Positions 629 to 62,826 of a stretch of DNA of 64,000 nt are shown piece by piece; the first letter of the stretch is position 1, and every line of letters begins with the position of its first letter. Under the pieces are notes generated by a model, which was given only the letters and a program-made list of their open reading frames with translations, made no database searches and was not told the DNA's origin. The position numbers and the translations under genes are program-made. The stretch is from a virus: the IMG/VR virus record IMGVR_UViG_3300014208_001418, one strand, 5' to 3'.

Positions 629-1324
629 CTATGCAAATATATCAGCATCCATTTCATAATACTTTCCCTCTTCTTTTCTTTCATAAACGAACTCATCACT
701 CACTATCTGTTTAATCTCAGGTTTATGTGGGCAATAATCATTGTGTCCTAATGATTCATTGCAATTATAGCACAAAACCCTAAAACCATCGGGATAATAA
801 TTTTTCATAATCCATTTATATAAATTCCCCCCAATTCCAGCTTTTTTCATATGTTTACCACCATTCCCATGAATATGATCAATCCCCAAAAAAGCATAAA
901 CATCATTACCACAGCATTCGCATCTCAGCTCAGGAGAGTAATGAGAAAGAACTTTATATCTGTTGTTTATATTCCATTTAGTTTTACCTTTTATCTCAGG
1001 ATTCTTATGAAAGCATTCTCCATAATAACCTTTGCACATATTGCAGTTGTAACATAAGACTTGAAATCCTTCAGGATAGTTGTTATTTATTAACCAAAAA
1101 TATAATACGTGTCCTACTTCTTTCCTATGTTCAGCTCCGTCATTATTAATATGATCTATAGTAAGGAATTCAATATGAGACTCTCTACAACAAGCACATT
1201 TCAATTCAGGAGAGTAATGAGACATTACTTGAAGACGAATCTTTGACCAATATTTTTTTACTTGTTCTTTTATTTCTTCCTTATGTTCTTCTTGGTATTT
1301 TCTCCTTTTCTCTTTATCCCACAT
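629..1324 (-). CDS. Tandem double-HNH endonuclease-like protein (copy 1)
   Basis: Two repeats of CxCC-LxIDHI-G-YP-G-VLCYNCN; ends YYEMDADIFA. Confidence 0.8.
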   Translation of the reverse strand: MWDKEKRRKYQEEHKEEIKEQVKKYWSKIRLQVMSHYSPELKCACCRESHIEFLTIDHINNDGAEHRKEVGHVLYFWLINNNYPEGFQVLCYNCNMCKGYYGECFHKNPEIKGKTKWNINNRYKVLSHYSPELRCECCGNDVYAFLGIDHIHGNGGKHMKKAGIGGNLYKWIMKNYYPDGFRVLCYNCNESLGHNDYCPHKPEIKQIVSDEFVYERKEEGKYYEMDADIFA

Positions 1325-1451
1325 TGATAATCCTCTCCCCTATCATAACATGACCACAATCTTTACATTTTCTTCTCTGAAATTTTCCTTTTACCTGTAT
1401 CTCTATTCCAGCTTTTACATTATTTTCACTTTGGCATTTATTACATTTCAT
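1314..1451 (-). CDS. 45-aa zinc-ribbon protein coupled to HNH copy 1 (not in ORF track)
   Basis: MKCNKCQSENNVKAGIEIQVKGKFQRRKCKDCGHVMIGERIINVG; overlaps the HNH start; paralog at 62816-62953. Confidence 0.75.
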   Translation of the reverse strand: MKCNKCQSENNVKAGIEIQVKGKFQRRKCKDCGHVMIGERIINVG

Positions 1452-1697
1452 ACTTTACTTATGTATGCACTTATTGATATATTTTACGCATCAGAATATT
1501 TAAACATTAATTATATATAGAATATCAATCAATTTCTTTAAAAAACTATGCCCAAAAACGTCACCCTCTCTGACATCCTCTTGTCAATCATAGTCTTAAT
1601 CTTAGCAATCGACCTTCACAAATATCCTCCTTAAATACCTCCTACTTTTTTCATAATCTTATTTATATAAATATCTTTAACTATATAACTAGAAATC

Positions 1698-1733
1698 TTT
1701 ATATACTATTCTCTCTTATTAGTAGTAGTAGCA
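1698..1733 (+). promoter_or_regulatory. TATA + AGTAGTAGTAGCA promoter
   Basis: TTTATATACT 1698-1707, exact 13-mer 1721-1733, ORF at 1771. Confidence 0.8.
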
Positions 1734-1770
1734 AAACATAAAACTATAAATAACACAAAGGAATAGAAAT

Positions 1771-2334
1771 ATGAATACAACAAACCTAAAACACGCTCAA
1801 ACGGTGATATCATATCCTCTGATCGACAAATTCAATAAACCCCTAAGCAAAATAGTCTTATACTTAGGTGAAACATGTCCATCATGTCTAATTAAACCCT
1901 CAGCAGTTCCGCGATTAAAAATAAAACGTCCTGACGGAACTCTCGTCATTAACAAAGCAACAAAAACTGCAAATAAATACAAAGGCTCTTTTAGAGGAAA
2001 CCTTGAAGCAGAAATAAAAGAACTCTTGATCCTCTGTAAATGCACAATAGAAGCAGAATCTTATCTCTCTACTGCCTACGTCAGCAGTATTCGCAACGTT
2101 GCAGTATCCGTGAAAAACTCCAGTAAAAACTGGAAAGGTTCTTTCTCTTTAATTATCACTGGTAACATTAAAACTATCCGTGAAGATACTAAAAAAGTAA
2201 TCGACTTCCTTGATAATCACGGAGTAACAATAATCCAAACCTGTGATAATCATTGCTTGCCAATTGAAACATCCCAAGACCTCAACAAAGTAAAGAACTA
2301 CAAGACAAAGAACTCAAAGAACTCCTCAAAATAG
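1771..2334 (+). CDS. Hypothetical protein
   Basis: 187-aa ORF after a motif promoter. Confidence 0.7.
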   Translation: MNTTNLKHAQTVISYPLIDKFNKPLSKIVLYLGETCPSCLIKPSAVPRLKIKRPDGTLVINKATKTANKYKGSFRGNLEAEIKELLILCKCTIEAESYLSTAYVSSIRNVAVSVKNSSKNWKGSFSLIITGNIKTIREDTKKVIDFLDNHGVTIIQTCDNHCLPIETSQDLNKVKNYKTKNSKNSSK

Positions 2335-2343
2335 TGATCCGCT

Positions 2344-3168
2344 ATGTTCGAAATAGATGAAAATGCAATCATAAATGTAAAATGTAACGGCTTCTCTGAC
2401 AATGACAAAAAAAATATTGCAATGGAGCTTCCAGACATAACCTCTTATGATGAAACAGGAAACCTAATCCTCCACCTTCCCGCAACTACAAACCTAGAAG
2501 AGCTAACAAACAAAGTAATTCAAGCTTACGTTTCAGTTCTTAAAGACTTTTCGAAAAATGCCCTCTCCTCTCCTTCTTCATTAAAGCCATCTAATTATGT
2601 ACTCCCTGTTAGCACATTTGCTCAGAAAACCGAAACTCTAAAGTCAGAAACTTTTTTAAAAGACATAACACTAAAGATGGTAATGGATAGAATCCTCGAA
2701 GAGAAACGTCAAAATTTTCATGCACATGAATATATAGAAATTTTTAAAAGCGAAATTGATCCAAATCATACATCAACAAGACGTAAAATAGCAGGACGAG
2801 TCTATAGTTCCATAACTCAATTATTAAAAGCAAAAAAAATATTTGTTTCCGATCATCCCTCAAAGAGGGGAGGAAAAGGAGGGGGAAGATTCTATTCAGT
2901 AGATTTAAACTATATAAATACTTCAACTTCATCTACAACATCTTCCTTAATAACAAAATCAAATCCGATCAAAGATCGAATCTTAACAGATAATCTACCT
3001 TCCTTTCGATTAGAACATTACTGTTCCGAATCCTTTTGTACAGAATTCAATCTACCAAAAGAAAAAATATTTCAACAAGTAAGTTCCACTGTAAAAGCTA
3101 TGATCGATGAAAATCTTGTAGATAGATTTGGCAAGGAACTATATACAGTAAAGCTATATACTCAATAA
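2344..3168 (+). CDS. Hypothetical protein, possible winged-helix segment
   Basis: 274-aa ORF; basic helix plus GGKGGGRFY wing-like segment. Confidence 0.55.
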   Translation: MFEIDENAIINVKCNGFSDNDKKNIAMELPDITSYDETGNLILHLPATTNLEELTNKVIQAYVSVLKDFSKNALSSPSSLKPSNYVLPVSTFAQKTETLKSETFLKDITLKMVMDRILEEKRQNFHAHEYIEIFKSEIDPNHTSTRRKIAGRVYSSITQLLKAKKIFVSDHPSKRGGKGGGRFYSVDLNYINTSTSSTTSSLITKSNPIKDRILTDNLPSFRLEHYCSESFCTEFNLPKEKIFQQVSSTVKAMIDENLVDRFGKELYTVKLYTQ

Positions 3169-3227
3169 AACAACATATTCATCCTTTAGCGTTTTTCTTT
3201 TTTTTCTTATTTTTTCTAATCACAATC

Positions 3228-3254
3228 TTTATATACATTGTAGTAGTAGTAGCA
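3228..3254 (+). promoter_or_regulatory. TATA + AGTAGTAGTAGCA promoter
   Basis: TTTATATACA 3228-3237, exact 13-mer 3242-3254. Confidence 0.8.
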
Positions 3255-3335
3255 ATTAATGAATGCGATAATACACACATCAGACAACAACTTCAACATC
3301 CTCAAATACAAAAAAGAAGGCGACCCTGACTAACC

Positions 3336-3779
3336 ATGCGACCCCTCCATGACTCAATTCACAACTGCCTAGACTGCAACACCTATAAACTCTATAAACA
3401 GCCTTGCTCCCTATCTCCTCTCGTTACAGTCAAAGTCTGTAACCTTTGCACCACACGCCCCTGTTGTCTCTCCCCCATAGTTCCTCTCATGCCCTGCGAG
3501 CAAGACACAATACTTGACCAATTCGACCCCGCCACTGAAGAACTCCCACTCAAAGGAGGCATTCCTTTTAACATCATAACCAAATATTGCAAACACCTCG
3601 ATCCCTCCACGCTAAACTGCAAAGTTTATCCGATTCGCCCAATCGCTTGTCGCATAGCCTGTAAATCCTGCACCTCCCCCTTCTGGAAGAAAATGCTTCT
3701 CAAACGCCAATCCCGTTTAAATTCAGAACAAGATCCAAATCATAACCTAAAAACTCAAATACCCGAAGTGAAAACATGA
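3336..3779 (+). CDS. YkgJ/UPF0153-like Cys-cluster (Fe-S/Zn) protein
   Basis: CNLC...PCC and CKHLD...CKVYPIRPIACR pattern. Confidence 0.6.
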   Translation: MRPLHDSIHNCLDCNTYKLYKQPCSLSPLVTVKVCNLCTTRPCCLSPIVPLMPCEQDTILDQFDPATEELPLKGGIPFNIITKYCKHLDPSTLNCKVYPIRPIACRIACKSCTSPFWKKMLLKRQSRLNSEQDPNHNLKTQIPEVKT

Positions 3780-4992: not shown

Positions 4993-5058
4993 TACTATTC
5001 TAAATACTATTTACTACTAATCACAAGTATTAAATACTAATAATTACTATCAGATACT

Positions 5059-5181: not shown

Positions 5182-5193
5182 GACTTATTAAAA

Positions 5194-6642
5194 ATGACAC
5201 GCAAACCTAGAGGATATTGGACTGAAGAGAATATTTTGAAAGAGCTTAACATTATTATAAATAAAATTGGTCATTTTCCTACATCTAACGAATTAAAGAA
5301 AATGGGGAAACAAAATATCACATTAGTAATGTGTAAAAATGGTGGCGCGGCACTTTTCAGAGAACTTACAAGTAACGAAATTATATGTAGAAAAAAAGGA
5401 TATTGGAGTGAAGAAATAACGATATCTGAATTAAAAAAAATAATTATTGAAATTGGTAGATTTCCGTCACGTAAGGACTTAGAAAATCTTAAAAAAGAAG
5501 CGTTAATAGGAGCAATGCAGAAAAATGGAGGAGAAATAAAGCTTAGAAGAGTTTTAAATCAACCTATAATAAAATTAGAAGACAACTATTGGAATAATGA
5601 TATCATAGTAAATCATTTAAATGATATAATACAAAAATTATCGCATTTCCCCTCTGCTAAAGATATTGAAAACACTGGAATTCATGGTTTAAAAAATAGT
5701 ATTAAAAAAACAGGTGGTTTACATTACTATAGAAAATTACTAGGATATAAACATAGCGAAAGAAATATTTATAAGACTGAATTAGAAGTACAAGTCGAAT
5801 TAGATAGATTAATAAAAATTCTAAATCATTACCCTACTGAAAAGGATATTAAAACATTGAGTAACAGTTGTTTAATAAGTTCTATAAGAAAATATGGGGG
5901 GCATAGAAAATTCAAAAAAATATTTAATCTTTATATACGAAATGACAATGGTTTTTGGACAGATGAAAAAATTGTAAAATCATTAGAAGAAATAATTTCT
6001 AAAGTTTCACATTTTCCGACTGAGCGAGAAATCGATGGTTTTGGAATAGCAGGTTTATCAAATGCGATAATGAAACATGGAGGTTATATAAAATTCAGAG
6101 AATTATGTGGAATTTCTGTATCAGATTATCAATATTTTTTTTCAAATCTGATGTCATATACATATAGAAGGGGGAAAAATTCAGAAAAAATAGTATTAGA
6201 TTTAATTAAAGAATGGTGCAAAATAAAAAATAAACCCGAACCGATATGTAATGTAAAAGTTTCAAAAGGTAATGTCATAGAATTTATTTGTGAAAATAAT
6301 AAAACGATAGGAATTGATGTTGTAAATACTTCTTTTAAACAATCTGTTTATCATAAGTGGGAGCGAAAAGAATATTCTAAATATCTAGACAAGCTTTTGA
6401 TTGTAGTCTTTTCAGATTGTTTCGATAATAACGATTATGAAGAATGGAATAATAACAGTCCAGATAATGTAATTATTATGTCTATAAACGACTTTATAAA
6501 AGAATTAGACTATTCTGTTGATAAAGCAACAATTGAAAAGATAGAGTGTTATAAAATTTGTTCTTTTCGTACAAAAGATGAACTCAAGAAAATTCATAAA
6601 AATGAAGAAACAATAATAAACTATGAGGATTATTTCGCATGA
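5194..6642 (+). CDS. Homing-endonuclease-associated repeat protein with C-terminal PD-(D/E)xK-like domain
   Basis: Five ~62-aa repeats (YW-E-I-L-HFP-L-GG-FR); C-terminal EKIV...IGIDV region; AT-rich island; ends YEDYFA. Confidence 0.65.
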   Translation: MTRKPRGYWTEENILKELNIIINKIGHFPTSNELKKMGKQNITLVMCKNGGAALFRELTSNEIICRKKGYWSEEITISELKKIIIEIGRFPSRKDLENLKKEALIGAMQKNGGEIKLRRVLNQPIIKLEDNYWNNDIIVNHLNDIIQKLSHFPSAKDIENTGIHGLKNSIKKTGGLHYYRKLLGYKHSERNIYKTELEVQVELDRLIKILNHYPTEKDIKTLSNSCLISSIRKYGGHRKFKKIFNLYIRNDNGFWTDEKIVKSLEEIISKVSHFPTEREIDGFGIAGLSNAIMKHGGYIKFRELCGISVSDYQYFFSNLMSYTYRRGKNSEKIVLDLIKEWCKIKNKPEPICNVKVSKGNVIEFICENNKTIGIDVVNTSFKQSVYHKWERKEYSKYLDKLLIVVFSDCFDNNDYEEWNNNSPDNVIIMSINDFIKELDYSVDKATIEKIECYKICSFRTKDELKKIHKNEETIINYEDYFA

Positions 6643-11813: not shown

Positions 11814-12501
11814 AAAGAGGAAGAAAACCCAATCCAAAACCTATTCATACTCCTACACCTATAAAGCTAATCGACCACATAAAATCCCTCAGACATCTCT
11901 CTCGCCCTTCAATTCCTCCCTCTCTTCCTATCCACACAAAACACAGAAATCAATTAACCAAACGTCAGCAAGCTCAAATCTCTCGAATTCAAAAATCATC
12001 CCACTCATCATGAAAACTAATCTAATCCTTAAAAATGTCTGCGATACATGCCTTTACCGCATAGATGAATGCCATTCTACTAGACTTTCCCTAAATCTCG
12101 ATCCTGAAGTAGAATGCACAGACTACCTCAAAGACCCCAGCACCCCAACTTCCATCCCTCTCCCCGATTACGTCCCTCCTGACGAAAAAACTCTATCTCC
12201 TGAGGAAGAATTTCTTATTTACAAAGAATGCTTTATCAACTATCTTTCATCCTTCCTAACCCAGTTTGCTAACGAAGTCACTAATAAACCCCTAACTCCC
12301 ATTCAAAAACTTCGCCTACGTGGCCTCCTTGAACTCGATTCCCATGCTCTCCTATTCGCTATTCAACACGGCATTCACCCAATAACAGGATGCAAATGGG
12401 ACATAACCAATCTCCGTTCCAAACATAAACTCAACACTCTCATCAAACGAAATAACAACATGATAACATACTTAAAAGATAATCAGGAGCATCATAGATG
12501 A
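11810..12501 (+). CDS. Two coupled hypothetical ORFs (11810-12013 basic; 12010-12501)
   Basis: ATGA overlaps. Confidence 0.55.
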
Positions 12502-13187
12502 ATTCAAATAAAAAAGTATTTTTAGAAATGTACCCTACGATACAGGGGGAAGGAGAAGACATCGGAAAACTAGCACTTCTACTAAGAACTTTCCAATGTA
12601 ATTTAAAATGTGAGTGGTGTGACACTAAGTTCTCATGGAATGAGAAACCAAAATTCTCTTCAGACGAAGCAATTGAATTCATAAAAACCAATCCTGCTTA
12701 TAATCTCATTATATTCAGTGGCGGGGAACCCCTGCTTCACCAAGACGAAATCGTCTACATCCTTAACACCCTAGAATCCCTATATCCAGACAAGTTTCCT
12801 CAATTTCGCTTCATAATCGAAACGAACTGCACTATAGCTCCTTGTATGGAACTCTACGAGATCATGCAATCTCAGGGAACATTTTCAGTCTCTCCCAAAT
12901 TTCACGCCCTCGACACTCTCATGATCAAAGCATTTGATTCTTTCCCAAATTCCTACTTCAAATTCGTAATCTCTGACCTTGAATCCGATATCAGCACCAT
13001 CCAACGCCTTTATTCCCAAAATATAATCACAAAACCCTTAACCATAGTCCAACCCAACGGAAACACACCTGATTACCTCTCTTCCTGTCGTTCCTTATGC
13101 GATTACATCATCTCCAACTCTCTAACCAATCTTCGCCCAATTCCACAATTCCACAAAATCTGCTGGCAAAATGCCCGAGGAAAATAA
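12498..13187 (+). CDS. queE: 7-carboxy-7-deazaguanine synthase (radical SAM)
   Basis: TIQGEG, CNLKCEWCDT, SGGEPLLH, IETN, SVSPK, FKFVI. Confidence 0.85.
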   Translation: MNSNKKVFLEMYPTIQGEGEDIGKLALLLRTFQCNLKCEWCDTKFSWNEKPKFSSDEAIEFIKTNPAYNLIIFSGGEPLLHQDEIVYILNTLESLYPDKFPQFRFIIETNCTIAPCMELYEIMQSQGTFSVSPKFHALDTLMIKAFDSFPNSYFKFVISDLESDISTIQRLYSQNIITKPLTIVQPNGNTPDYLSSCRSLCDYIISNSLTNLRPIPQFHKICWQNARGK

Positions 13188-19717: not shown

Positions 19718-20290
19718 ATGCATGTAAATCTTAACTATATCGAAGACATATCCACAGTAGATTACCATAACAAATCCTCCTGCGTAGTCTTCTTTAACGA
19801 ATGCCCCTTCAAATGTCCTACCTGCCACAACAAAATCACATGGAATAACATCAACCTTATCGACACATCAATCATAAAAACCCGAATCCGTTCTTGTCTT
19901 CCTTTCATCTCCGCCGTTGTTTTTTCGGGTGGTGAGCCCACAAAGCAAATCGGTCCCCTTCTCGAACTCTGTCAATTCTCAAAATCCCTTTCCCTATCCG
20001 TCGCTATCGAATCAAACGGTTTTTACCCCGAAAATCTTAACCGTCTCAAACCTTTCGTAGACATCTTCTACATCGATGTCAAAGCACCCATAAACTCCCC
20101 TAGCGCCTACTTCAACGCAACTAAGAACAAACATGCCTATTCTCGCATTAATTACACTCTCTCTCTTAATCTCCCCATAAAGATCCGCATTGTAGATATC
20201 AACAAATCCCTCACTACTCAAATCATTGACAGTCTCCCCAAAAAATTCGAAATCACTACCTTACCCTATATAATCCCCCCTAAACCATAA
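19718..20290 (+). CDS. nrdG: Anaerobic ribonucleotide reductase activating protein-like radical SAM enzyme
   Basis: STVDY...CVVFF-CPFKCPTCHN, VVFSGGEPT, IESNG, YIDVKAP. Confidence 0.7.
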   Translation: MHVNLNYIEDISTVDYHNKSSCVVFFNECPFKCPTCHNKITWNNINLIDTSIIKTRIRSCLPFISAVVFSGGEPTKQIGPLLELCQFSKSLSLSVAIESNGFYPENLNRLKPFVDIFYIDVKAPINSPSAYFNATKNKHAYSRINYTLSLNLPIKIRIVDINKSLTTQIIDSLPKKFEITTLPYIIPPKP

Positions 20291-34151: not shown

Positions 34152-34874
34152 ATGGTTAGGAATGAATTATTTTTTAATGAAATTGATAATGAATTCAAAG
34201 CTTACTGGCTAGGATTTATTTATGGAGATGGATGTATTTACCAAATTTACGATAAAGTTTATGGTAAATTAAATACAGGATCTCTTAATATAATGTTAAG
34301 TAAAAAAGATGAAAATCATCTTAAAAAATTTTCTGACATTTTCAGTACAACTCTATATTCTAATGAAAAAAGGAATGAATGCAGAGTTAGTATATGTAAT
34401 AAAAATATTTTTTATGACTTAAAAGATTTGGGAATGCCAGAAAGAGATATGAAAGTAATAATAAAAAAAGTGCCAGAAAAATTAATGAATCATTTTATCA
34501 GAGGATTATTTGACGCAGACGGGAGCGTTTATCTTAGAAAACGAATAAAAGGAACATCATTGGGAATAGGGATAGACATAGTATTCTCTAATATGGAGAT
34601 AGCTATTGATATTCAAAACATTTTATGTAAAAATACCTCTTTAAGTAAAACAAAGATATATGAATATAAAAAACAAAACTGTTTTAGACTCACGTATGGC
34701 GGAAGTGAAATGCCTTTATTTTTTGCTAATTAGATATACAAAGATTCTCATATTGTTCTTGAAAGAAAATATAACATCTTCAAAGATTATTACCTTAATC
34801 TATTAAATGAACCTACAACAGGAATAGCATATGAGGACTATATTGGTTTTCCAGATTTAGATTTGTTTGCGTAG
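34152..34874 (+). pseudogene. Double-motif LAGLIDADG homing endonuclease with one in-frame TAG (34731-34733)
   Basis: KAYWLGFIYGDGCI, FIRGLFDADGSV; same frame continues IYKDSHIVLERKY...DLDLFA. Confidence 0.8.
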
Positions 34875-38248: not shown

Positions 38249-39223
38249 ATGGAAATTAACGAACTAATAGGCCTAAAAACGGGCTCACGCAATTTGGCGT
38301 GGACAACATCAGAAGGAACAAAAACAGTTCCCTCTTGTATAGGTGAAGAACTCGATATCCACAACAAAGTAATAAACTATATCTTCAATAAACCTGAAAA
38401 CAAACTCAGCAAATACCCCCTCAACAGAGGCATAGTAACAAATGCCTCCTCTCAAAATCTCCTGATAAAACTTCTTGAGCATACTCAAATCCCACGATTC
38501 TCTAACTTAGTCGTGGCTGCTCCTGAAACTGAGCTAACAGAAGGTCAGAATATGCTCAAAGATGCGATCATAAAAGCTTTAAGCCCCAACAAAGACTTTA
38601 TCCTCTATCCAGAATCCTTCTGCGGAGCCGTTTACAAGATGGGAGTCGATACAGCCCTGAACAATTTTTTCACAGCTTTAAACTTAGGTTCAACATCAAC
38701 AGGTATAGGAGTTTTCACCCCCATAGGCGAAAAGCGAAAACTCGTTTTAACAGCTACCAACGATGTTTCAGGCTCCTCTGTAGACGAAAAAATCCTTCAA
38801 CGCCTGAAAAATACATATGGCTCCGTAGTCGTGAACATCAGCAAAATCCAAGACCTCAAAGAGAAATCCTCTCTCAAACTTGAATCCAATGCCTTCACTC
38901 CCATAGACATTATTGAAGGCACTCACCAAAAAACGAAAGACTGCACCTCAGAGTTCCAAACAGAACTTGACCTATATGCCCAAGACGTATCCAATCTCTT
39001 CGTAAAAATATTCTCCCTGCCCAGTTCAACCTTCCGATACGACATGATCAATTCACCAGTAATTTTAACCGGTGGAATGGTAAATATCCCCGGAATGTCC
39101 CAACGCATAAAAAAATACATCGATGAAAAAACCAACGCCAACATCGATCTTCAGACAGTCGAAGACGGGCATCTCGCACCCGCAAAAGGTGGATTTTTGC
39201 TGGCAGGAGAACAATATTCATGA
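38249..39223 (+). CDS. Actin-fold (MreB/MamK-like) protein with degenerate phosphate motifs
   Basis: IGLKTGSRN, PLNRGIV, YPESFCGA, LNLGSTST, GSSVDEKI, VILTGGMVNIPGM. Confidence 0.75.
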   Translation: MEINELIGLKTGSRNLAWTTSEGTKTVPSCIGEELDIHNKVINYIFNKPENKLSKYPLNRGIVTNASSQNLLIKLLEHTQIPRFSNLVVAAPETELTEGQNMLKDAIIKALSPNKDFILYPESFCGAVYKMGVDTALNNFFTALNLGSTSTGIGVFTPIGEKRKLVLTATNDVSGSSVDEKILQRLKNTYGSVVVNISKIQDLKEKSSLKLESNAFTPIDIIEGTHQKTKDCTSEFQTELDLYAQDVSNLFVKIFSLPSSTFRYDMINSPVILTGGMVNIPGMSQRIKKYIDEKTNANIDLQTVEDGHLAPAKGGFLLAGEQYS

Positions 39224-43977: not shown

Positions 43978-44694
43978 ATGCAAATACAAGAAAATTCAAC
44001 TCATACTTTAATAATATCAGAACATCCTGTTAAAATATGCGATTTATGCGGTGAGGTTGCAGATACAAAACTACAACCTAAAAAAGATAAGGAGATTTGT
44101 TTTAATTGCGGAACCCGGAGCAACGAACTCAAAACAGAGTTCCAAAAAAGTTACAAATTCGAAAACCTCAGAACAACTCCGCAATCAATATTTAATGTAA
44201 GCTCCATCATCGAAATAAACCACAATTGCCGTAATTATTGCAAAGCTCCGTATCGTGATCATCCTCACGGATGCCCTAATTTTGGAGTTCATGAAGAATG
44301 TCCTCCCAAAGTTGATATAGTCGAAAATATATTCGACATGGGTAAAGACCTTTTCTTTGTAGTAGAAGAATTTGATTTAAAATCCCACGTTGAAAAAATG
44401 CGTCTCAAACATCCGAAATGGAGTGAATTCCAGTTACGAAATCTCCTATACTGGCAAGGTGGAGTACGCAAACGCCTTACCTTCAAAACCTTACGATTCA
44501 TCTCCACCTTTTCCGATACAACCAATATTATCTATACTCTGCTTCCAGAAGCAATGGGAGTTATGGTCATTAATACTGCTTTAAAGGCAAGAATCCCAAT
44601 ACAAAAATCTCCAACTGATAAAATATTCAAAATCGCATTAGTAGGATATAGAAAAGATCCGATAATCGAAACAAGGAACGATTATTTTGCTTAA
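43978..44694 (+). CDS. DUF2284-like metal-binding protein
   Basis: CPNFG...CPP, PEAMGVMV; ends RNDYFA. Confidence 0.7.
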   Translation: MQIQENSTHTLIISEHPVKICDLCGEVADTKLQPKKDKEICFNCGTRSNELKTEFQKSYKFENLRTTPQSIFNVSSIIEINHNCRNYCKAPYRDHPHGCPNFGVHEECPPKVDIVENIFDMGKDLFFVVEEFDLKSHVEKMRLKHPKWSEFQLRNLLYWQGGVRKRLTFKTLRFISTFSDTTNIIYTLLPEAMGVMVINTALKARIPIQKSPTDKIFKIALVGYRKDPIIETRNDYFA

Positions 44695-45390: not shown

Positions 45391-45509
45391 ATGTAAAGAA
45401 TGCAAAAACTTCGAAAAGATTGACATAGGAAAAAAGGAAAAAGTCTCCAACTGTTCAATAGGGCTGATAGCAACGAGATATTTTCTTCATTATTGCGGTG
45501 GGTTTAAAC

Positions 45510-45935
45510 GTGCCTAACTTCAAAACTCACTACTATTTCAATCTGTTTGTGGGATTATCCGCAGGCATATATGCTATATATTATGATTATCTACCGTTTT
45601 TGGATTATAGTTTATTCTTCCTAGCGTTTATTATTGGCACAGACTATATCACTCCTGACGTTGATGTACGGTCTACCCCATATTATAAATTCCCCTTCAT
45701 ATGGTACCCCTATAGAAAAGCGTCTTCCCATCGTGGACTCTCTCATACGATAATAGGCATTTTCATACGAATTCTATGGATCCTCGCAATAATCCTATTA
45801 GCTTCGTATTTGCTCAATCAGCTCGATTCAGTGATAGATTTCCTCATGAACACAACGATCTATCACTATATGCTATTCTTGGGAGGTATAATAATAGCTA
45901 ATCTGTTGCATCTGATTTTAGATGACTTATTTTAA
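45510..45935 (+). CDS. DUF2227-like membrane metal-binding protein
   Basis: GTG start MPNFKTH; TPDVDVRS, HRGLSH, HLILD. Confidence 0.75.
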   Translation: MPNFKTHYYFNLFVGLSAGIYAIYYDYLPFLDYSLFFLAFIIGTDYITPDVDVRSTPYYKFPFIWYPYRKASSHRGLSHTIIGIFIRILWILAIILLASYLLNQLDSVIDFLMNTTIYHYMLFLGGIIIANLLHLILDDLF

Positions 45936-46118: not shown

Positions 46119-46673
46119 TCATGCAAACAAATCCTCTATGTTTTCTTCTGTTTTTTCATCACTATTTTTTTCAAAAATCGATTCAATTCCGATATTCAAG
46201 TCAGGATTCGCAATCATCTTATTTAATCGTTCATCATCCTTTCTTAATAATTTATTCCATCTATCCACGAATTTTTTGCTCAGACCATAATCCCTTATTA
46301 TCTGCCTCTTTAATATCACTGATGATTCAATGACTACTACCTCGTTTTTAACGTCAGGAACTTCAACGATTTTTTCCTCATCGAAGCTCTCCACACGCTC
46401 AACTGAAACTTTAAAAATTCTACCAAATTCCTCCAGCTTTTCTACAAGTTCTTCTTCAACATCGACTAAGAACTTTACAGGCTGACCTGTTTCCATCTTT
46501 TTCGTGGCTTTGACAAACTCAGTTTTATCTTTGCTATACCAGCCCTGTTTATTATCCCACTTCAGCTTTTTTGAAAATATGGCCTTAAACTTATCCTTAA
46601 CCTTAATATTCTTCGCTTCGTCAAATACTCGACCATATTGACCAGCCTCGATAAAATTAATAATCAATTTCAT
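46119..46673 (-). CDS. Hypothetical protein
   Basis: 184-aa ORF; ends NIEDLFA. Confidence 0.7.
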   Translation of the reverse strand: MKLIINFIEAGQYGRVFDEAKNIKVKDKFKAIFSKKLKWDNKQGWYSKDKTEFVKATKKMETGQPVKFLVDVEEELVEKLEEFGRIFKVSVERVESFDEEKIVEVPDVKNEVVVIESSVILKRQIIRDYGLSKKFVDRWNKLLRKDDERLNKMIANPDLNIGIESIFEKNSDEKTEENIEDLFA

Positions 46674-47028: not shown

Positions 47029-47646
47029 TCATAGTCTACTCTCTTGTTTCTTATAACATGTTCCACATTCCCAATTTTCAGGAATATTTACTTTAGCATT
47101 AACATTTCCAAACGACGGAGCATTTTCGCATCCACAAGCTCTGATAGTTCCATCAGGTCTGACTATTAAATCCTCGCAGATACAACCATCTCTTCCATCT
47201 TTACATCTTCCTACTTTTATTTCTTTGTCTGTTACATCTCTGATTTCTCTTCCATCAGGACTATCGTCACAAAATTGATGTTGAGGTTTTGTAAAAGCAT
47301 CTATAACACTTATATCTATAGGACCATGATATCTATCTTGACTTAGCGCAACTCCCAGCACTCCTTTTTTTGCCATTTTTGCCAGAGTCAAAGCTATTTC
47401 GGTCTGACTTCCGTTTGTTGCCATCCACACATAATCGCTATTTCCTATAGCTTCAAAAAGCATCTGAGTGAACAATGGATGAATTGTGGGTTCTCCTCCG
47501 CCAATTGTAACTGATTCGTTATTATATTTAAGAGCATTTCTAAAAGTCTCAATTGTCATGTCTTCGCCCTTATCAGTACAGTTCATACCACAATGTGAAC
47601 AATGCATATTACAACGATCTGTTATTTGAATGTACATAATTAGCAC
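47029..47646 (-). CDS. Radical SAM protein
   Basis: ITDRCNMHCSHC, GGGEPT, ATNG, C-terminal VRPDG-CGC. Confidence 0.8.
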   Translation of the reverse strand: MLIMYIQITDRCNMHCSHCGMNCTDKGEDMTIETFRNALKYNNESVTIGGGEPTIHPLFTQMLFEAIGNSDYVWMATNGSQTEIALTLAKMAKKGVLGVALSQDRYHGPIDISVIDAFTKPQHQFCDDSPDGREIRDVTDKEIKVGRCKDGRDGCICEDLIVRPDGTIRACGCENAPSFGNVNAKVNIPENWECGTCYKKQESRL

Positions 47647-49983: not shown

Positions 49984-49984
49984 A

Positions 49985-52032: not shown

Positions 52033-52737
52033 ATGAAAAGAAAATCTAATCGTATAGTGTCAATTTTATCGGGAGGGATGGACAGCACTACGCTAACTTA
52101 TGATTTAGCATTGTCTGGAAATGAAGTTTTTGCTATCAGCTTTAATTACCAGCAAAAACATGTTCGAGAACTTGAATGTGCTAAGGCAACATGTAAAAAA
52201 CTTAATATTCCTCATAAGATAGTAGATATAAGCTCTATCAGCTCCATTCTCCAGGGAAGCTCATTGACATCTCCTGATATTCCAACTCCTCATGGAAAAT
52301 ACGATGAAGAGAACATGAAACAAACAGTCGTTCCTAATCGTAATATGATTATGATCAGCTTAGCTACTGCTTATGCTATCAGCATAGGAGCAACTGAAGT
52401 TTATTATGGAGCCCATGCTGGAGACCACGCTGTGTACATGGATTGTCGACCTGAATTCGTAAGCAAACTCCAAGAAGTAATCAAAATATGTGACTGGAAT
52501 AAAGTAGAACTCAAAGCTCCATATCTTAATCTTGACAAAGGAGATATCGCAATTATAGGTAAGATGCTTCACGTAGACTATGAAAACACGACTAGCTGTT
52601 ATGAAGGCAAAGAAACCCCTTGTTTAAAGTGTGGAAGTTGTGATGAACGTATAGGAGCATTTATAAAAGCAGATATGAGAGATCCTATAATAGATGAATA
52701 TAATTGGAGCAGAATATTAAAAGAGAAAGTACTATGA
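52033..52737 (+). CDS. queC: 7-cyano-7-deazaguanine synthase
   Basis: LSGGMDST, VPNRNMI, DCRPEF, SCY...CLKCGSC. Confidence 0.92.
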   Translation: MKRKSNRIVSILSGGMDSTTLTYDLALSGNEVFAISFNYQQKHVRELECAKATCKKLNIPHKIVDISSISSILQGSSLTSPDIPTPHGKYDEENMKQTVVPNRNMIMISLATAYAISIGATEVYYGAHAGDHAVYMDCRPEFVSKLQEVIKICDWNKVELKAPYLNLDKGDIAIIGKMLHVDYENTTSCYEGKETPCLKCGSCDERIGAFIKADMRDPIIDEYNWSRILKEKVL

Positions 52738-53725: not shown

Positions 53726-54217
53726 ATGATTGACTGGCAAGAAACAATAAAAAAATATAGTATCGAATATCTTAAGGATTTTCCTCAAAAACAACCTGAG
53801 AACGCTTTGTATGTTACTCGCTGCTGTAAAATTAAGACAACCGATCCTGAGGCAATACCGAAAGAATTCTATAAGAGCGATATCGTGCAAAGGTTTATAA
53901 GGTTCTGTGAGACAAACGACTTGAACTATGCAATCCTATCAGACTTGTATGGGATTCACGTCAAAGACGAAAAGATGCAGACATATGATATTCATCCTTC
54001 ATCCTTATCTGAAGCTCAAATAACGCATTTAGGGAGCCTGATAAGAAGTAAATGCGATTATATTAAAGTCGATACGATCTATTACTACAATCCATCTCCG
54101 TTGATGTCAATACCTTATTTTAGGATGCTTGCAAAATCGCAACTGAAAGTATATTATTTGTCTCAACTCAAAAAAGAAGAAAAATACTTTGAAGCTAATG
54201 AGGATATGTTCGCATAG
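53726..54217 (+). CDS. DUF6884-like protein
   Basis: CCKIK...EFYKS...YAILSDLYGI; ends NEDMFA. Confidence 0.55.
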   Translation: MIDWQETIKKYSIEYLKDFPQKQPENALYVTRCCKIKTTDPEAIPKEFYKSDIVQRFIRFCETNDLNYAILSDLYGIHVKDEKMQTYDIHPSSLSEAQITHLGSLIRSKCDYIKVDTIYYYNPSPLMSIPYFRMLAKSQLKVYYLSQLKKEEKYFEANEDMFA

Positions 54218-57828: not shown

Positions 57829-58013
57829 CTATTTCTTATTTTATATCTTCCAAAATTAACTAAATATTTTATCCTTATTCTCTGATCTATATTACACCAT
57901 CCATCAAATTTAGCTGATAAACATCTTTATATACTAAATCAGTGTTTATAGTTTATGAAAAAAATTTTCAATAACAGTAACACAAAAATTAAACCAAAAC
58001 TAAACTTAAAAAG

Positions 58014-58718: not shown

Positions 58719-59821
58719 TGAAAGAAAAAATATTATTAATATTATTTTTATTTTTTGCTGGGATAACTTTCATCCCATCAGCATCAGCCACAGCATACAA
58801 TGAATTAGCAGCATTTCCATTCGCATATGACCCAAATACATGGAACACTTATATCGATGAATCAGTTAAGATGAATGTGCAATGGGTACATTTACTTGGA
58901 AATCCCCCTTCAAAATTCTTGATAACTGATGCACGATTAAGTAAACCCGATTTACTAAAACCTCGTATTAACTATGCACGTTCAAAAGGATTAAAAGTAT
59001 CCTTATTAGTTGTGGATTATAAGTATGGTAAGGATAATTATAACAGGTGGTATAATAATGCAAATACTAAAAAACAGATTTTAGATGACATCCAATATGC
59101 AATAAAAAATTATGATATTGATGCTTTAGAATTGGAGGAACCCTTTACACCTGGAGTTATGGCACAATCACCCACAAAAGTGGTAGCTTATTTGAGAGAA
59201 ATAAGAGGATTGATTGATACAGGAATTAGCAATGGTGATATCCCCGTAGATTTCCAGTTTGGAGCTACTATGAGTTCCAATAACGTCAACAATTATCTCT
59301 TTTTGAGGGATGCTATAGTTCAAGGAAAGATATTTACGTATCTACGACCTGAGATGGTGTATCAAGACGTTGGGACAGGAAGTGGATTTGAGAAGAATTA
59401 TAATAATTGGAAGACAGCTTTCCCTGCAACAATATTAGATATACGACCAGTTATATACATCCAATGGTCTGCATTGAAAACTGCATGTATCGCAAAGGGA
59501 TATAGTGGCTACAACCATTATTCGTGCTATAACCAAGGATGGTTTAAGCAAATCGACTGGGCGCATAAGAATAACATAGGTATGTATATTTATACTGTAT
59601 GGGTGCCTTCTGCAAATTCAGGTTATTTCCCTCAAGATAAATTCCCTGGGACTAATGCAACTCAAAAAATATCAGGTATTTTAAGCTATCTACAAACATC
59701 TATAACCCCAACTCCCATTGTAACGGGAACACTAACTCCGAGTATTACACCAACTACAGATAATTCATCAATAACATTCTGGAGTATACTTATGAATTGT
59801 TTCGGATCCTTGTTAAGATAA
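58718..59821 (+). CDS. Secreted glycoside-hydrolase-like (beta/alpha barrel) protein
   Basis: Signal peptide; DIDALELEEP; Trp/Tyr-rich; family not determined. Confidence 0.5.
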   Translation: MKEKILLILFLFFAGITFIPSASATAYNELAAFPFAYDPNTWNTYIDESVKMNVQWVHLLGNPPSKFLITDARLSKPDLLKPRINYARSKGLKVSLLVVDYKYGKDNYNRWYNNANTKKQILDDIQYAIKNYDIDALELEEPFTPGVMAQSPTKVVAYLREIRGLIDTGISNGDIPVDFQFGATMSSNNVNNYLFLRDAIVQGKIFTYLRPEMVYQDVGTGSGFEKNYNNWKTAFPATILDIRPVIYIQWSALKTACIAKGYSGYNHYSCYNQGWFKQIDWAHKNNIGMYIYTVWVPSANSGYFPQDKFPGTNATQKISGILSYLQTSITPTPIVTGTLTPSITPTTDNSSITFWSILMNCFGSLLR

Positions 59822-59863
59822 GAAAGGAATAAACTTAAATACCATTAAAGAGTTGATCAAAAA

Positions 59864-61987
59864 ATGAAATCTAAGCCAATACTAATTATACTATTTTTAG
59901 TATCAATTAGTATTATTTTTACTAACCTTGCCAACGCTTCAACCCTAACTAATGGTAATTTTGAAAACTCAACGACTGGATGGACTTTTAATCAAGGGAC
60001 TGGAACTGCATCACATTCTATAGTTAATGTGAGTGGGAATAACATGTCACGAGTTATTTTAACTACAAAAGGAGATAATGTTCAATTATTTCAAAATGGA
60101 TTTACTCTTTTGTCTGATACAAGGTATAGATTGAAATTTAATATAAATTCTACTGCGACTTCTGTTTTTTCTGTTTATTTGAAAAAGTATAATTCACCAT
60201 ATACTAGCTATGGATTGTCTGAATATAATACTATAATAAATAGCACTACACAATCGTTAGTATATAATTTCATAACATCCGGATTTACCGGAAGTACAAC
60301 TGATGTTAGATTACAATTTCTGTTTGATGAGGGTGTAAATGGGAGCTTATATTATATCGACAATGTAACACTTGAAACGGTATATATATCACCTTCTCCA
60401 ACGAACCTAACTGCAACTCAAGGAAATTTCTGGATTAACTATACATGGTCAGCAGGAACGGGTAATGTTACAGATTCATTCAATGTCTCACAAAATGGAA
60501 CATGGACAAACGGAAGCTCAGCACCATTTCTAAATACAACTATTTCTCCTCATAATTGGAGCAATATTACGGTTTATGCATATAACAATAGCGGAGAGGG
60601 GGAATTAAACTTAACTGCAATATCAGACAACACTCAATTAACTAATAATCTAATAACATTGAGCAACATAAGCAGTACCTACATCGGTTCTATTGGCTCT
60701 CAAATAGCCATTTATCCTACCTATAATGATTCAGACTCAGATACTCCTACTTTCGCAAGTTCAACAACAAAAGGAAATTTTACTTCATCAAACGGAACAT
60801 TCTTATGGACTCCGCAAGCAGGAGATAACGGTACTTACAACTGGTACATTAATGTGAGTGACGGATATAGTTCTGTAGATACAATTAATTTCTCCGTATC
60901 AGTTAATAGCAATACACCAGGAACCCCCATCGATATAACATCAACTACAGGTAATTTCTGGGTAAATACAACATGGAGTAGCTCAGTAAACACAGATTCG
61001 TATAACATTAGCTTCAATAACGGATCATATCTAAACGGAAGTGCATCAAATTACATAAACCTAACATTATCTCCTCATGCATGGAGCAATATAACTGTTT
61101 GGGGATACAACTTATCAGCAGATGAACTCGGAAATTCCTCATCTCTCAGTACCCAAATCCCGAATAACGCCCCTACAATCGAATCTTCAAGCATCTCAAC
61201 ATCATCCATCACTACTGTTCAGTCGCTCACTATAACAGCTACAAACGTTTCAGACCTTGATAATGACACTATCTCTAGTGTTAATGTATCAGTTCTATTT
61301 AATATAGGCGGTACAACGAATTACAGCATGTCTAACACTGAAGGTAATAGCTGGACATATTCATATTCAAGCGCAACTGCTGGCTCTTATACAGTAACAG
61401 CAATCACTATAACTGACAATCAAAACGAAGTCACAATCAACACTACATCAATTGCTTTTACTGTTACAACTCCTCCAGCAACAGTAGTCGCTCCATCAGG
61501 AAGTGGTAGCAGTCCTCAAACTGTAATTACTCTGAATCAGACCTCAAACAATACCAACTTAGAGAACCTAGTTTTTAAACTCAAAGAACTTGCTCCAGCT
61601 CTTCCAGAAGGAATGCAACAACTGATAGCAGAATGTTTTGTTAATGGTACCTTACTCAATAACAAATGCTCTACAACCTTTATTTCCAACCCAATAAACT
61701 ACTGGCCTTCGATGGTAGGAGCGTTGACAGGGGCATTTATTTCCATATTCAGCATCATGTTGATTTATAGGGTGTACAGGAATCTGTTGATAGACACATT
61801 ACTTTATGGGGTAATAAGCATAATTACAATACAGGTCATAATATTAGTGGGGTTCAATATGTTTTTCTTGAATTATATTTTTCAGACTGACCAACCATCA
61901 TATATGTTTATCTCATCATTATTGGAAACTATGATAATTAGTTTTGGACTTGATAAAATATTCAATAAGAAAACTAGAAGAGTATAA
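59864..61987 (+). CDS. Large surface glycoprotein: CBM4/9-like domain, two GNFW Ig/FnIII-like repeats, C-terminal TM helices
   Basis: LTNGNFEN; GNFWINYTW...NITVYAYN and GNFWVNTTW...NITVWGYN; many N-x-S/T sequons. Confidence 0.75.
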   Translation: MKSKPILIILFLVSISIIFTNLANASTLTNGNFENSTTGWTFNQGTGTASHSIVNVSGNNMSRVILTTKGDNVQLFQNGFTLLSDTRYRLKFNINSTATSVFSVYLKKYNSPYTSYGLSEYNTIINSTTQSLVYNFITSGFTGSTTDVRLQFLFDEGVNGSLYYIDNVTLETVYISPSPTNLTATQGNFWINYTWSAGTGNVTDSFNVSQNGTWTNGSSAPFLNTTISPHNWSNITVYAYNNSGEGELNLTAISDNTQLTNNLITLSNISSTYIGSIGSQIAIYPTYNDSDSDTPTFASSTTKGNFTSSNGTFLWTPQAGDNGTYNWYINVSDGYSSVDTINFSVSVNSNTPGTPIDITSTTGNFWVNTTWSSSVNTDSYNISFNNGSYLNGSASNYINLTLSPHAWSNITVWGYNLSADELGNSSSLSTQIPNNAPTIESSSISTSSITTVQSLTITATNVSDLDNDTISSVNVSVLFNIGGTTNYSMSNTEGNSWTYSYSSATAGSYTVTAITITDNQNEVTINTTSIAFTVTTPPATVVAPSGSGSSPQTVITLNQTSNNTNLENLVFKLKELAPALPEGMQQLIAECFVNGTLLNNKCSTTFISNPINYWPSMVGALTGAFISIFSIMLIYRVYRNLLIDTLLYGVISIITIQVIILVGFNMFFLNYIFQTDQPSYMFISSLLETMIISFGLDKIFNKKTRRV

Positions 61988-62037
61988 TGAACCTAAAAAA
62001 AAAGGATTAAAACAAAAAGAGTATGATCTAATTTTTA

Positions 62038-62826
62038 TTAAGCAAAAACACTTTCATCCATTTCATAATATTTCCCCTCTTCTTTTCTTTCATAAACGAA
62101 CTCATCATTTACTTTTTGTTTAACTTCAGGATGATGTGGACAGTAACTATAATTTCCCAAAGAACAGTTACAGTTATTACATAGAACTCTAAAGCCTTCA
62201 GGATAACAATTGTTTATTATCCATCGATTTAAACCACTTCTACCCACTTCATTTCTATGTTTATTTCCGTTCCCATGTGCATGATCCAAACTTAAAAAAG
62301 CATAAACATCATTACCACAACAAGCGCATTTTAAATCTGGAGAATAGTGAGATAGTACTTTATATCGATAGTTTATATTATATTTATCTTTCCCTCTTAT
62401 CTCAGGGTTCTTATGATAACACTCTTCATAGAATCCTTTGCATAGATTACAGTTATAACATAGGACTTGAAATCCTTCAGGATAGTTATTTTTTATAAGC
62501 CAGTTCATTAAGTACGGATCTCCTCCAATCTCTCGTTTATGTTCTGCTCCATCGTTATTAATATGATCTATAGTCAAAAACTCAACATGGGATTCACCAC
62601 AGCATTGACATTTTAATTCTGGAGAGTAGTGAGATAGTACTTGAAGGCGAAGTTTGTCACGATATTCTTTATTCCACTCTTTCATCTCCTTTCCATGCTC
62701 TCTGTAATATTCTCTATTATATTCTTTTTTTTCTTCCTTATGCTCTTTACGATATAATTGCAATTCTTCTTTATTCTCCTCCTGCCATTTTTTCATATAC
62801 TCAGCTCGTTTTACTTTATCCCACAT
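62038..62826 (-). CDS. Tandem double-HNH endonuclease-like protein (copy 2)
   Basis: Paralog of 629-1324; MWDK start at 62826; ends YYEMDESVFA. Confidence 0.8.
   Translation of the reverse strand: MWDKVKRAEYMKKWQEENKEELQLYRKEHKEEKKEYNREYYREHGKEMKEWNKEYRDKLRLQVLSHYSPELKCQCCGESHVEFLTIDHINNDGAEHKREIGGDPYLMNWLIKNNYPEGFQVLCYNCNLCKGFYEECYHKNPEIRGKDKYNINYRYKVLSHYSPDLKCACCGNDVYAFLSLDHAHGNGNKHRNEVGRSGLNRWIINNCYPEGFRVLCNNCNCSLGNYSYCPHHPEVKQKVNDEFVYERKEEGKYYEMDESVFA

What the first reader, a model, noticed from the sequence alone, without database searches (positions are those of the whole stretch)
629..62826. Shared acidic-hydrophobic-Phe-Ala C-terminal tail on seven proteins from six unrelated families
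Seen: C-termini YYEMDADIFA (629), NYEDYFA (5194), PDLDLFA (34152 read through its TAG), RNDYFA (43978), NIEDLFA (46119), YFEANEDMFA (53726) and YYEMDESVFA (62038). The codons differ (TTT/TTC, GCA/GCT/GCG, and all three stop codons), which points to selection on the peptide rather than a DNA repeat. Four of the seven are endonucleases. Established analogies are the T4 gp45 clamp-binding LDF-hydrophobic C-terminal motif, the bacterial QL(D/S)LF clamp motif and the SSB acidic tail. Inference: an undescribed docking peptide for an element-encoded hub such as a clamp, or a C-terminal degron limiting toxic nucleases.
Basis: partly seen in the sequence, partly recalled or inferred. Interest (0 to 1): 0.8.

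Follow-up and report, generated by a model that had tools for sequence, protein, structure and literature searches.

The report
Clamp-docking-type tail on mobile-element DNA enzymes
A 148-kb circular archaeal-type mobile element from groundwater ends its DNA polymerase, clamp-loader subunit, DNA-modifying enzymes and several selfish homing endonucleases with the same four-residue peptide (acidic, hydrophobic, Phe, Ala). The peptide sits where archaeal polymerases carry their sliding-clamp hook, so it most likely tethers all these enzymes to the replication fork.

Summary
Six window ORFs end in [DENS]-[LMIVY]-F-A-stop, and a seventh, a LAGLIDADG gene, does so past an in-frame TAG.

The window is 43% of a circular ~148-kb groundwater element. 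Over the whole circle, 10 of 199 ORFs end in FA (0.15-0.39 expected, P ~1e-11; none of 1,317 control ORFs fit the pattern). Codons and stop codons differ, so the peptide is selected, not a DNA repeat.

The four tails outside the window decide the reading:
- family-B DNA polymerase
- RFC-large-like clamp-loader subunit
- TGT/DpdA-like transglycosylase
- a 125-aa protein

In a related 184-kb element, orthologues of the polymerase, RFC-large-like protein, TGT and HNH endonuclease keep the tail, and a DNA methylase carries it too. Distant polymerase and TGT homologues carry canonical PIP-type ends at the same position. HNH homologues in unrelated viruses have no tail.

Best reading: a non-canonical, lineage-specific clamp-docking (PIP-like) peptide. 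The degron idea is not supported.

The hub itself is not identified. Two RFC-like genes are present but no recognisable clamp, and binding is untested.

This scan reported similar clamp-tail findings on other archaeal-virus DNA. New here are the motif variant, the homing endonucleases as clients, and the missing clamp.

The parts
629..1324 (-). Double-HNH endonuclease (231 aa). A ~27-residue charged linker follows the last CPHK motif and ends in ..YYEMDADIFA, then TAG.
   Evidence: (phrog_2255 HNH, E 1e-14). 75 HNH homologues in unrelated IMG/VR contigs mostly end at or shortly after the CPHK-type motif, and none ends in the tail.
62038..62832 (-). Paralogue of the 629 gene (264 aa, 70% identical). 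Ends ..YYEMDESVFA, then TAA.
   Evidence: Its homologue in the related element (L101:16143-17165) ends ..VDENIFA.
5194..6642 (+). 482-aa protein with homing-endonuclease-associated helical repeats. Ends ..NYEDYFA, then TGA.
   Evidence: PF18780 HNH_repeat, E 5.5e-6.
34152..34874 (+). LAGLIDADG endonuclease with an in-frame TAG at 34731-34733. The frame continues for 46 codons to ..PDLDLFA, then TAG.
   Evidence: The phrog_4645 match (E 9.5e-35) spans residues 4-212, running across the TAG at codon 194.
43978..44694 (+). 238-aa Cys-rich DUF2284-like protein. Ends ..TRNDYFA, then TAA.
   Evidence: Its 60%-identical homologues in two complete 66-68-kb viral genomes end ..ESMFEF, the tail type that the PolB of those genomes carries.
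46119..46673 (-). 184-aa ORFan. Ends ..ENIEDLFA, then TGA.
   Evidence: One search found no homologue among 5.8 billion proteins other than the protein itself.
53726..54217 (+). 163-aa DUF6884 protein (DNA-binding 'cantaloupe' fold family). Ends ..EANEDMFA, then TAG.
   Evidence: The nearest homologue ends ..SDDIFA, and many distant ones end in K-x-L-F. The family description is from PMC11701544.
77..625 (+). 182-aa protein ending ..KKRLTQFF. This is a canonical-type PIP core (L-x-x-F-F) and a possible further clamp client of the other motif type.
   Evidence: Not followed further; Pfam gives nothing.

Best explanation
The tail is a short linear docking motif, consensus [D/E]-[L/M/I/V/Y]-F-[A/L]-COOH, placed at the end of a charged, variable linker. 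It is a lineage-specific, non-canonical variant of the C-terminal clamp-binding (PIP-like) peptide of archaeal replication proteins.

Shown:
- The same tail ends the element's family-B DNA polymerase and its RFC-large-like clamp-loader subunit.
- It also ends DNA-modifying or DNA-binding enzymes (TGT/DpdA-like and DUF6884; a DNA methylase in a relative) and three kinds of homing endonuclease.
- It is kept by orthologues in related elements.
- In more distant homologues of PolB and TGT, canonical PIP-type ends sit at the same position.

Inferred:
- The terminal Phe and the preceding hydrophobic residue insert into the hydrophobic pocket of a ring clamp. That clamp is either host PCNA or an unrecognised element-encoded clamp loaded by the element's two RFC-like proteins.
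- Replication, DNA hypermodification and endonuclease cleavage would then be concentrated on newly replicated element DNA.
- For homing endonucleases this would couple cleavage to replication forks, where a repair template is at hand.
For: 1. Enrichment far above chance, with selection at the peptide level rather than the DNA level.

2. The whole circle was recovered. It holds four further tails: PolB L089:1896-5777 ..EEYDLFA, RFC-like AAA+ L089:10171-11466 ..EQEMFA, TGT-like L089:13379-14641 ..AQDLFA, and the 125-aa L089:14646-15023 ..AELFA. The AAA+ protein hits RFC subunits in the PDB at E 3e-13.

3. In the related 184-kb element (PolB 64% identical), PolB ends ..EMDLFL, RFC-L ..ELEMFA, the HNH homologue ..DENIFA, a DNA methylase ..EEDLFL and a 131-aa protein ..MELFA. 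The TGT from a contig of the same length ends ..PEDMFA.

4. PolB homologues at 52-69% identity end in D-[LMI]-F-[LA], DDLLL or DFFA after a 44-70-residue variable linker. More distant ones end in QKSLMDF, QSTLKEFVS or QRSAINKYFDF. Cellular TACK PolBs end in LLDFLG, GQRTLF or GLDAFM.

5. TGT homologues grade from ..[DE][DE][IM]FA to ..SALDFF..SISDYF and ..SVSKYF, which is a PIP core.

6. Tails appear to co-vary within an element. PolB ..DDLLL and TGT ..EDILL are both listed on a 21,470-bp contig. G1/G2 PolB, the DUF2284-like protein and a methylase all end in SMF[NE]F.

7. HNH homologues in 75 unrelated viral contigs lack any such tail.

8. From established knowledge: archaeal PolB, RFC-large, Fen1 and others bind PCNA through C-terminal PIP peptides, and T4 gp43, gp33 and gp55 bind gp45 the same way.
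Against: - No binding data exist.
- The motif fails the canonical PIP definition: no Gln, no conserved hydrophobic residue at position 4, and only one aromatic residue.
- No sliding clamp was recognised in the element by Pfam, PHROGs or a custom PCNA HMM.
- The host, and so its PCNA, is unknown.
- Several clients have no known function (46119, the 125-aa protein).
- The RFC-large-like proteins of the distant relatives G1 and G2 have no tail.
Confidence: 0.62

Rival explanations
1. The tail docks onto a common hub that is not a sliding clamp. Candidates would be an element-encoded replisome organiser, a primase or helicase, an SSB/RPA-like protein or a compartment scaffold. It would act as a private address tag for the element's DNA-metabolism proteins.
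For: - No clamp gene is detectable although two RFC-like genes are present.
- The motif departs from the canonical PIP pattern that archaeal Fen1 proteins carry (Q-x-x-L-x-x-W-F).
Against: - The tail occupies the PIP position of PolB and RFC-large.
- It grades into canonical PIP cores in distant PolB and TGT homologues.
- The client list (polymerase, loader, methylase, nucleases) is the classic clamp client list.
Confidence: 0.2
2. The tail is a C-terminal degron, comparable to ssrA ..LAA or the Mollicutes ..YAFA tag. It would be read by an archaeal protease (Lon or proteasome/PAN) and would limit the levels of potentially toxic nucleases.
For: - The hydrophobic-Phe-Ala carboxy end resembles nonpolar C-degrons and an HbYX-like ending (established knowledge).
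- Four of the seven window clients are endonuclease-related.
Against: - The same tail sits on the replicative polymerase, a clamp-loader subunit and DNA-modifying enzymes, and is conserved on their orthologues.
- It replaces PIP-type ends in homologues.
- Nothing links it specifically to toxicity.
Confidence: 0.07
3. There is no common function. The endings are shared by chance, by compositional bias or by recombinational spread of a 3' DNA cassette among genes.
For: Two clients (629 and 62038) are paralogues, and a third (53726) shares a slightly longer K-E-E-x-K-Y-[YF]-E stretch with them.
Against: - P ~1e-11 against composition, and 0 of 1,317 control ORFs fit the pattern.
- Codons and stops differ, with 51% mean nucleotide identity over the last 24 nt.
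- Orthologues in relatives keep only the last four residues while the linkers diverge.
Confidence: 0.02

Closest known systems
Archaeal C-terminal PIP box (Q-x-x-[LIVM]-x-x-[FYW]-[FYW]) of PolB, RFC large subunit, Fen1, RNase HII
   Same: - It lies at the extreme C-terminus, on a flexible charged linker.
- It is present on PolB and on the RFC-large-like subunit.
- Distant homologues of the same PolB and TGT families carry canonical PIP cores at the same place.
   Different: - There is no Gln.
- The conserved hydrophobic residue is at -3, not -5.
- There is a single aromatic residue, followed by Ala or Leu.
- An acidic residue at -4 is nearly invariant.
Phage T4/RB69 gp45-clamp-binding C-terminal peptides (gp43 polymerase, gp33, gp55)
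   Same: - A virus-specific acidic-hydrophobic-aromatic C-terminal peptide is shared by the polymerase and by otherwise unrelated proteins.
- The element also encodes an RFC-like clamp loader.
   Different: - T4 encodes a recognisable clamp (gp45). None was recognised here.
- The clients here include homing endonucleases and DNA-hypermodification enzymes.
Bacterial beta-clamp-binding motif Q-L-[SD]-L-F, including transposases that bind the clamp (PMC4549789)
   Same: - The core [SD/E]-L-F is the same.
- There is precedent for mobile-element nucleases or transposases riding on the clamp.
   Different: - The replication module here is of the archaeal type (PolB, RFC).
- An extra terminal Ala or Leu is present, and Gln is rare.
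ZRANB3, a eukaryotic HNH endonuclease recruited by PCNA through PIP and APIM motifs (PMC5481773)
   Same: An HNH nuclease tethered to the sliding clamp through a short motif.
   Different: ZRANB3 is a cellular fork-remodelling enzyme with canonical motifs. The nucleases here are free-standing homing-type endonucleases of a mobile element.
Earlier notes of this scan on other archaeal-virus DNA (e1-5326711, e1-3397360)
   Same: PolB, DNA methylases and DpdA share a C-terminal clamp-type tail.
   Different: - Those tails are L-x-x-W-[IL], closer to the canonical PIP.
- One of those viruses has its own clamp.
- No homing endonucleases were among the clients.

Membership tests
Canonical PIP box | Gln at motif position 1 | tested here: not met
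   Of the 17 tails, 1 has Q at -8 and 2 have Q at -5. There is no fixed Gln.
Canonical PIP box | Aliphatic residue at position 4 (-5 from the end) and two aromatic residues at positions 7-8 | tested here: not met
   Position -5 is mostly E/Q/A. Position -2 is F in 17 of 17 tails, but -1 is A (15) or L (2). The conserved hydrophobic residue is at -3.
Canonical PIP box | Located at the extreme C-terminus of PolB and RFC large subunit, after a flexible linker | tested here: met
   PolB and the RFC-large-like protein both end in the tail. The PolB linker of 44-70 residues is variable while the last 4 residues are kept.
Canonical PIP box | Binds the hydrophobic pocket under the interdomain connecting loop of PCNA | not testable with these tools
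   The host PCNA is unknown and no clamp was found in the element. This needs peptide-binding assays or a co-structure.
T4-type viral clamp system | The virus encodes its own ring clamp together with a clamp loader | tested here: inconclusive
   Loader homologues are present. No clamp was found by Pfam, PHROGs or a PCNA HMM. Structure predictions of two candidates failed, with pLDDT about 30.
Bacterial beta-clamp-binding motif | Q-L-[SD]-L-F consensus on clients of DnaN | tested here: not met
   Only the [DE]-hydrophobic-F core matches. The replication proteins are of the archaeal or eukaryotic type (RFC, PolB).
C-terminal degron (ssrA-like) | Confers protease-dependent instability, and the tagged proteins are ones to be removed | not testable with these tools
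   Indirect evidence argues against it: the tail is conserved on PolB, RFC-L and TGT orthologues.
SSB acidic tail | The tail belongs to the single-strand-binding protein itself and recruits partners to it | tested here: not met
   At least ten different non-SSB proteins carry the tail.

The most novel reading that the evidence does not exclude
The element, and its relatives, run a private replisome code. An unrecognised, highly divergent clamp or clamp-like hub would be loaded by the element's own two RFC-like proteins. It would read [D/E]-hydrophobic-F-[A/L]-COOH rather than the host's Q-x-x-L-x-x-[WF]-F.

The element's polymerase, its 7-deazaguanine DNA-modification enzymes and even its selfish homing endonucleases would then be insulated from host PCNA traffic. 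Homing endonucleases would have evolved the tail to ride the element's fork.
Probability: 0.25. Interest if true: 0.8.

Novelty: new variant of a known kind. Interest (0 to 1): 0.6.

Why it matters
If the tail is a clamp hook, one four-residue signature identifies the replication-fork interactome of an uncultivated 148-kb archaeal-type element directly from sequence. That interactome includes proteins of no known family.

- **Homing endonucleases.** It would be the first case I could find of free-standing homing endonucleases (HNH, LAGLIDADG) carrying a clamp-type tail. This suggests homing is coupled to replication.
- **DNA modification.** It would place 7-deazaguanine DNA modification (TGT/DpdA-like, DUF6884) at the fork.
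- **Gene calling.** The tail also marks true C-termini. It shows that TAG is a genuine stop in this element.
- **The missing clamp.** Two RFC-like genes without a detectable clamp go against the pattern reported for dsDNA viruses, where loaders occurred only in genomes with clamps (PMC3201878). That points to a hidden clamp or to hijacking of host PCNA.

Tried and rejected
**Search for a clamp in the element**
- Pfam, PHROGs and precomputed Pfam over all called genes found none.
- A five-sequence archaeal PCNA HMM with filters off found nothing below E 0.06.
- hhalign of every 180-420-aa protein against PCNA found nothing.

**Candidate proteins examined and set aside**
- L092:5606-6448 is winged-helix-like.
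- L092:7806-8618 is an Ig/DUF11-like fold.
- L091:11103-12206 is primase-like.
- L082:4181-5053 has an HExxH motif and is not clamp-like.
- L090:19091-20098 looked clamp-like by eye only. It has no PDB or Pfam support and its single-sequence AlphaFold model failed at pLDDT 30.
- The 294-aa protein of relatives G1 and G2 has A. fulgidus PCNA as its only PDB hit, but at E 0.067. Its hhalign probability is 2%, its model failed at pLDDT 31 and Pfam gives nothing. It remains an unproven lead.

**Complex prediction**
- Swiss-Prot PCNA_NITMS, used as a stand-in, was folded with the last 42 residues of the 629 HNH. The tool returned no answer, so this counts neither for nor against binding.

**Host identification**
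- The nearest cellular PolBs are only 22-30% identical.
- The RFC-small homologue is equally distant (about 36-39% identity) from Aenigmatarchaeota and from Thermoproteota.
- Only 'archaeal-type, groundwater' can be said.

**Searches that returned nothing**
- The phage collection has no nucleotide or protein match.
- IMG/VR has no relatives of the DUF6884 or TGT proteins.
- JGI metagenome contigs have no relatives of L090:19091-20098.
- The 46119 protein has no homologue at all.
Full report
**1. Observation**

A six-frame scan finds exactly six ORFs longer than 160 aa that end in Phe-Ala-stop:
- 629-1324(-)
- 5194-6642(+)
- 43978-44694(+)
- 46119-46673(-)
- 53726-54217(+)
- 62038-62832(-)

The seventh case is also real. 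The LAGLIDADG ORF 34152-34733 stops at a TAG, and the same frame runs on for 46 codons to ..PDLDLFA at 34874. The PHROG endonuclease profile aligns across that TAG.

By BLASTP, 629 and 62038 are 70%-identical double-HNH paralogues. The other bodies are unrelated.

Phe, Ala and Leu codons and the stop codons all differ. The last 24 nt are on average 51% identical between genes. Selection therefore acts on the peptide and not on a DNA repeat.

**2. The element**

Exact-protein look-ups place the window on a 148,445-bp contig assembled independently in ENA and JGI data, and in pieces in a Logan assembly. The window runs off one end of the record and re-enters at the other with a 141-bp k-mer overlap. 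The element is therefore circular, about 148.3 kb, and the window is 43% of it.

It comes from groundwater metagenomes.

Its replication genes are of the archaeal type:
- an intein-bearing family-B polymerase;
- an RFC-small homologue (E 3e-43 to A. fulgidus RFC-S);
- a second, divergent RFC-like AAA+ protein;
- an XPF/Hef-like nuclease;
- a primase-like protein.

I walked the whole circle through loci L080, L082 and L085-L092.

**3. The tail over the whole element**

Ten of 199 ORFs of at least 60 aa end in FA, which makes it the commonest C-terminal dipeptide. Expectation is 0.39 from composition, or 0.15 from the internal frequency of the four-residue pattern. The binomial P is about 1e-11. 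None of 594 ORFs from unrelated viral loci and none of 723 ORFs from cellular loci end in the pattern.

The four tails outside the window:
- PolB (..EEYDLFA)
- the RFC-large-like AAA+ protein (..EQEMFA)
- a TGT/DpdA-like transglycosylase (..AQDLFA)
- a 125-aa protein (..AELFA)

A 102-aa protein ends ..QDLFAS.

Where a function can be assigned, every client acts on DNA: polymerase, clamp-loader subunit, transglycosylase, HNH, LAGLIDADG, a protein with homing-endonuclease repeats, and DUF6884. Pfam's curators describe DUF6884 as a DNA-binding, probably base-flipping fold (PMC11701544).

**4. Conservation**

In a related 184-kb element (33% GC, PolB 64% identical), a 24-kb stretch holds five tails:
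- PolB ..EMDLFL
- RFC-large-like ..ELEMFA
- an HNH homologue of 629/62038 ..DENIFA
- a DNA methylase ..EEDLFL
- a 131-aa protein ..MELFA

A TGT listed on a contig of the same length ends ..PEDMFA.

Over 17 tails, position -2 is Phe in all. Position -3 is L/M/I/V/Y in all. Position -4 is Asp or Glu in 15. Position -1 is Ala in 15 and Leu in 2.

In PolB homologues at 52-69% identity, a 44-70-residue linker after the last conserved block diverges freely. The end is still D-[LMI]-F-[LA], DDLLL or DFFA. This is the signature of a short linear motif on a disordered linker.

The nearest DUF6884 homologue ends ..SDDIFA. TGT homologues at 62-74% identity end ..[DE][DE][IM]FA.

By contrast, HNH homologues in 75 unrelated IMG/VR contigs mostly end at or shortly after the last Cys/His motif, and none carries the tail. 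The tail is therefore an addition specific to this clade.

**5. Link to the clamp**

The tail occupies the position that archaeal PolB and RFC-large use for the PCNA-interacting peptide (established knowledge).
- More distant PolB homologues of the same search end in QKSLMDF, QSTLKEFVS or QRSAINKYFDF.
- Cellular TACK PolBs end in LLDFLG, GQRTLF or GLDAFM.
- More distant TGT homologues end in SALDFF, SISDYF, SVSKYF or DITKYF, which is the h-x-x-a-a core of a PIP box.
- Many DUF6884 homologues end in K-x-L-F.

Two independent protein families thus show a graded series from canonical PIP-type ends to the FA tail.

Tails also seem to co-vary within a genome.
- PolB ..DDLLL and TGT ..EDILL are both listed on a 21,470-bp contig. 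This is the same contig by length only; I had no look-ups left to check.
- In two complete 66-68-kb viral genomes, PolB, the homologue of 43978 and a methylase end in SMFNF, SMFEF and SMFNFE.

**6. What is not shown**

No clamp gene was recognised in the element or in those two complete relatives. [quoted passage not shown]

Two leads remain unproven.
- A 294-aa protein of the relatives has A. fulgidus PCNA as its only PDB hit, at E 0.067.
- L090:19091-20098, next to the primase gene, looks clamp-like by eye only.

Both AlphaFold runs failed for lack of alignment depth.

The host could not be assigned. Aenigmatarchaeota, which appear among named homologues, use canonical Q-x-x-L-x-x-W-F tails on Fen1.

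**7. Verdict**

The tail is best read as a non-canonical, lineage-specific clamp-docking peptide (confidence about 0.6). That it is a docking motif for some common hub is more likely still, at about 0.8 for the clamp and non-clamp readings together.

The degron reading is unlikely, because the tail is conserved on core replication enzymes.

The tail also shows that TAG is a working stop codon here: two tails directly precede TAG. The TAG inside the LAGLIDADG gene is therefore a nonsense codon or a read-through site, not a reassigned sense codon.

Earlier notes of this scan reported analogous clamp-type tails on PolB, methylases and DpdA of other archaeal viruses. The principle is recurrent. 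What is new here is the motif variant, the homing endonucleases among the clients, and the absence of a detectable clamp.

Noticed in passing
whole window; L080, L082, L085-L092: The window is 43% of a circular ~148.3-kb element. The contig is 148,445 bp with a 141-bp k-mer overlap, and it was assembled independently in ENA, JGI and Logan data from groundwater.
   Followed up: yes
L092:3150-4166, L089:10171-11466 (outside the window): RFC-small and RFC-large-like genes are present, but no recognisable sliding clamp is found in the element or in two complete relatives. This is unusual for dsDNA viruses (PMC3201878).
   Followed up: partly
window 52033-52737 (QueC); radical-SAM genes at 12498-13187, 19718-20290 and 47029-47646; outside the window: GTP cyclohydrolase I L089:11463-12053, PTPS L090:15908-16357, TGT-like L089:13379-14641: A near-complete 7-deazaguanine (preQ0-type) pathway sits beside a DpdA-like transglycosylase, which suggests G-modified DNA. 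The + strand has a strongly negative GC skew throughout.
   Followed up: no
P0059 (646 aa): A natural fusion of the TGT/DpdA-like enzyme with a DUF6884 domain (a homologue of window 53726-54217). It links DUF6884 functionally to DNA 7-deazaguanine modification.
   Followed up: no
PolB C-terminal linker, L089:1896-5777 and P0002-P0012: A second conserved acidic-hydrophobic stretch ([DE][DE]-[ILM]-[LF]-S-[TE]) lies about 20 residues after the last polymerase block. It may be a second docking motif.
   Followed up: no
window 34731-34733: An in-frame TAG interrupts the LAGLIDADG gene, yet 46 intact codons and an intact tail follow. Two FA tails that directly precede TAG (629, 53726) show TAG is otherwise a stop. 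This is either a recent nonsense mutation or programmed read-through.
   Followed up: partly
window 77-625 and 45498-45935: The 182-aa protein ends ..KKRLTQFF, a canonical PIP-type core. The DUF2227/YdjM-like 145-aa protein ends ..LILDDLF.
   Followed up: partly
L092:4988-5509 and L092:5606-6448: Two adjacent proteins of 173 and 280 aa share a different C-terminal ending (..AEIKYL and ..ATIKYL). This may be a second shared tail or a shared domain.
   Followed up: no
L077:1351-2235 / L078:1341-2231 (relatives G1, G2): A 294-296-aa protein 5 kb upstream of PolB has A. fulgidus PCNA as its only PDB sequence hit (E 0.067, residues 161-267). It is a candidate for a very divergent viral clamp.
   Followed up: partly
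L082:8077-9907 (just upstream of window position 1): A resolvase gene and an IS605 OrfB/TnpB-like gene, that is, an insertion sequence inside the element.
   Followed up: no
L088:3886-5598; window 38249-39223: The element encodes a fusexin-like protein (PF28161 Fsx1) and a Salactin/MreB-like actin homologue.
   Followed up: no
P0080-P0132 (DUF6884 homologues): Many DUF6884 proteins from unrelated metagenomic sources end in K-x-L-F or x-F-F. The family may often be clamp-tethered.
   Followed up: no
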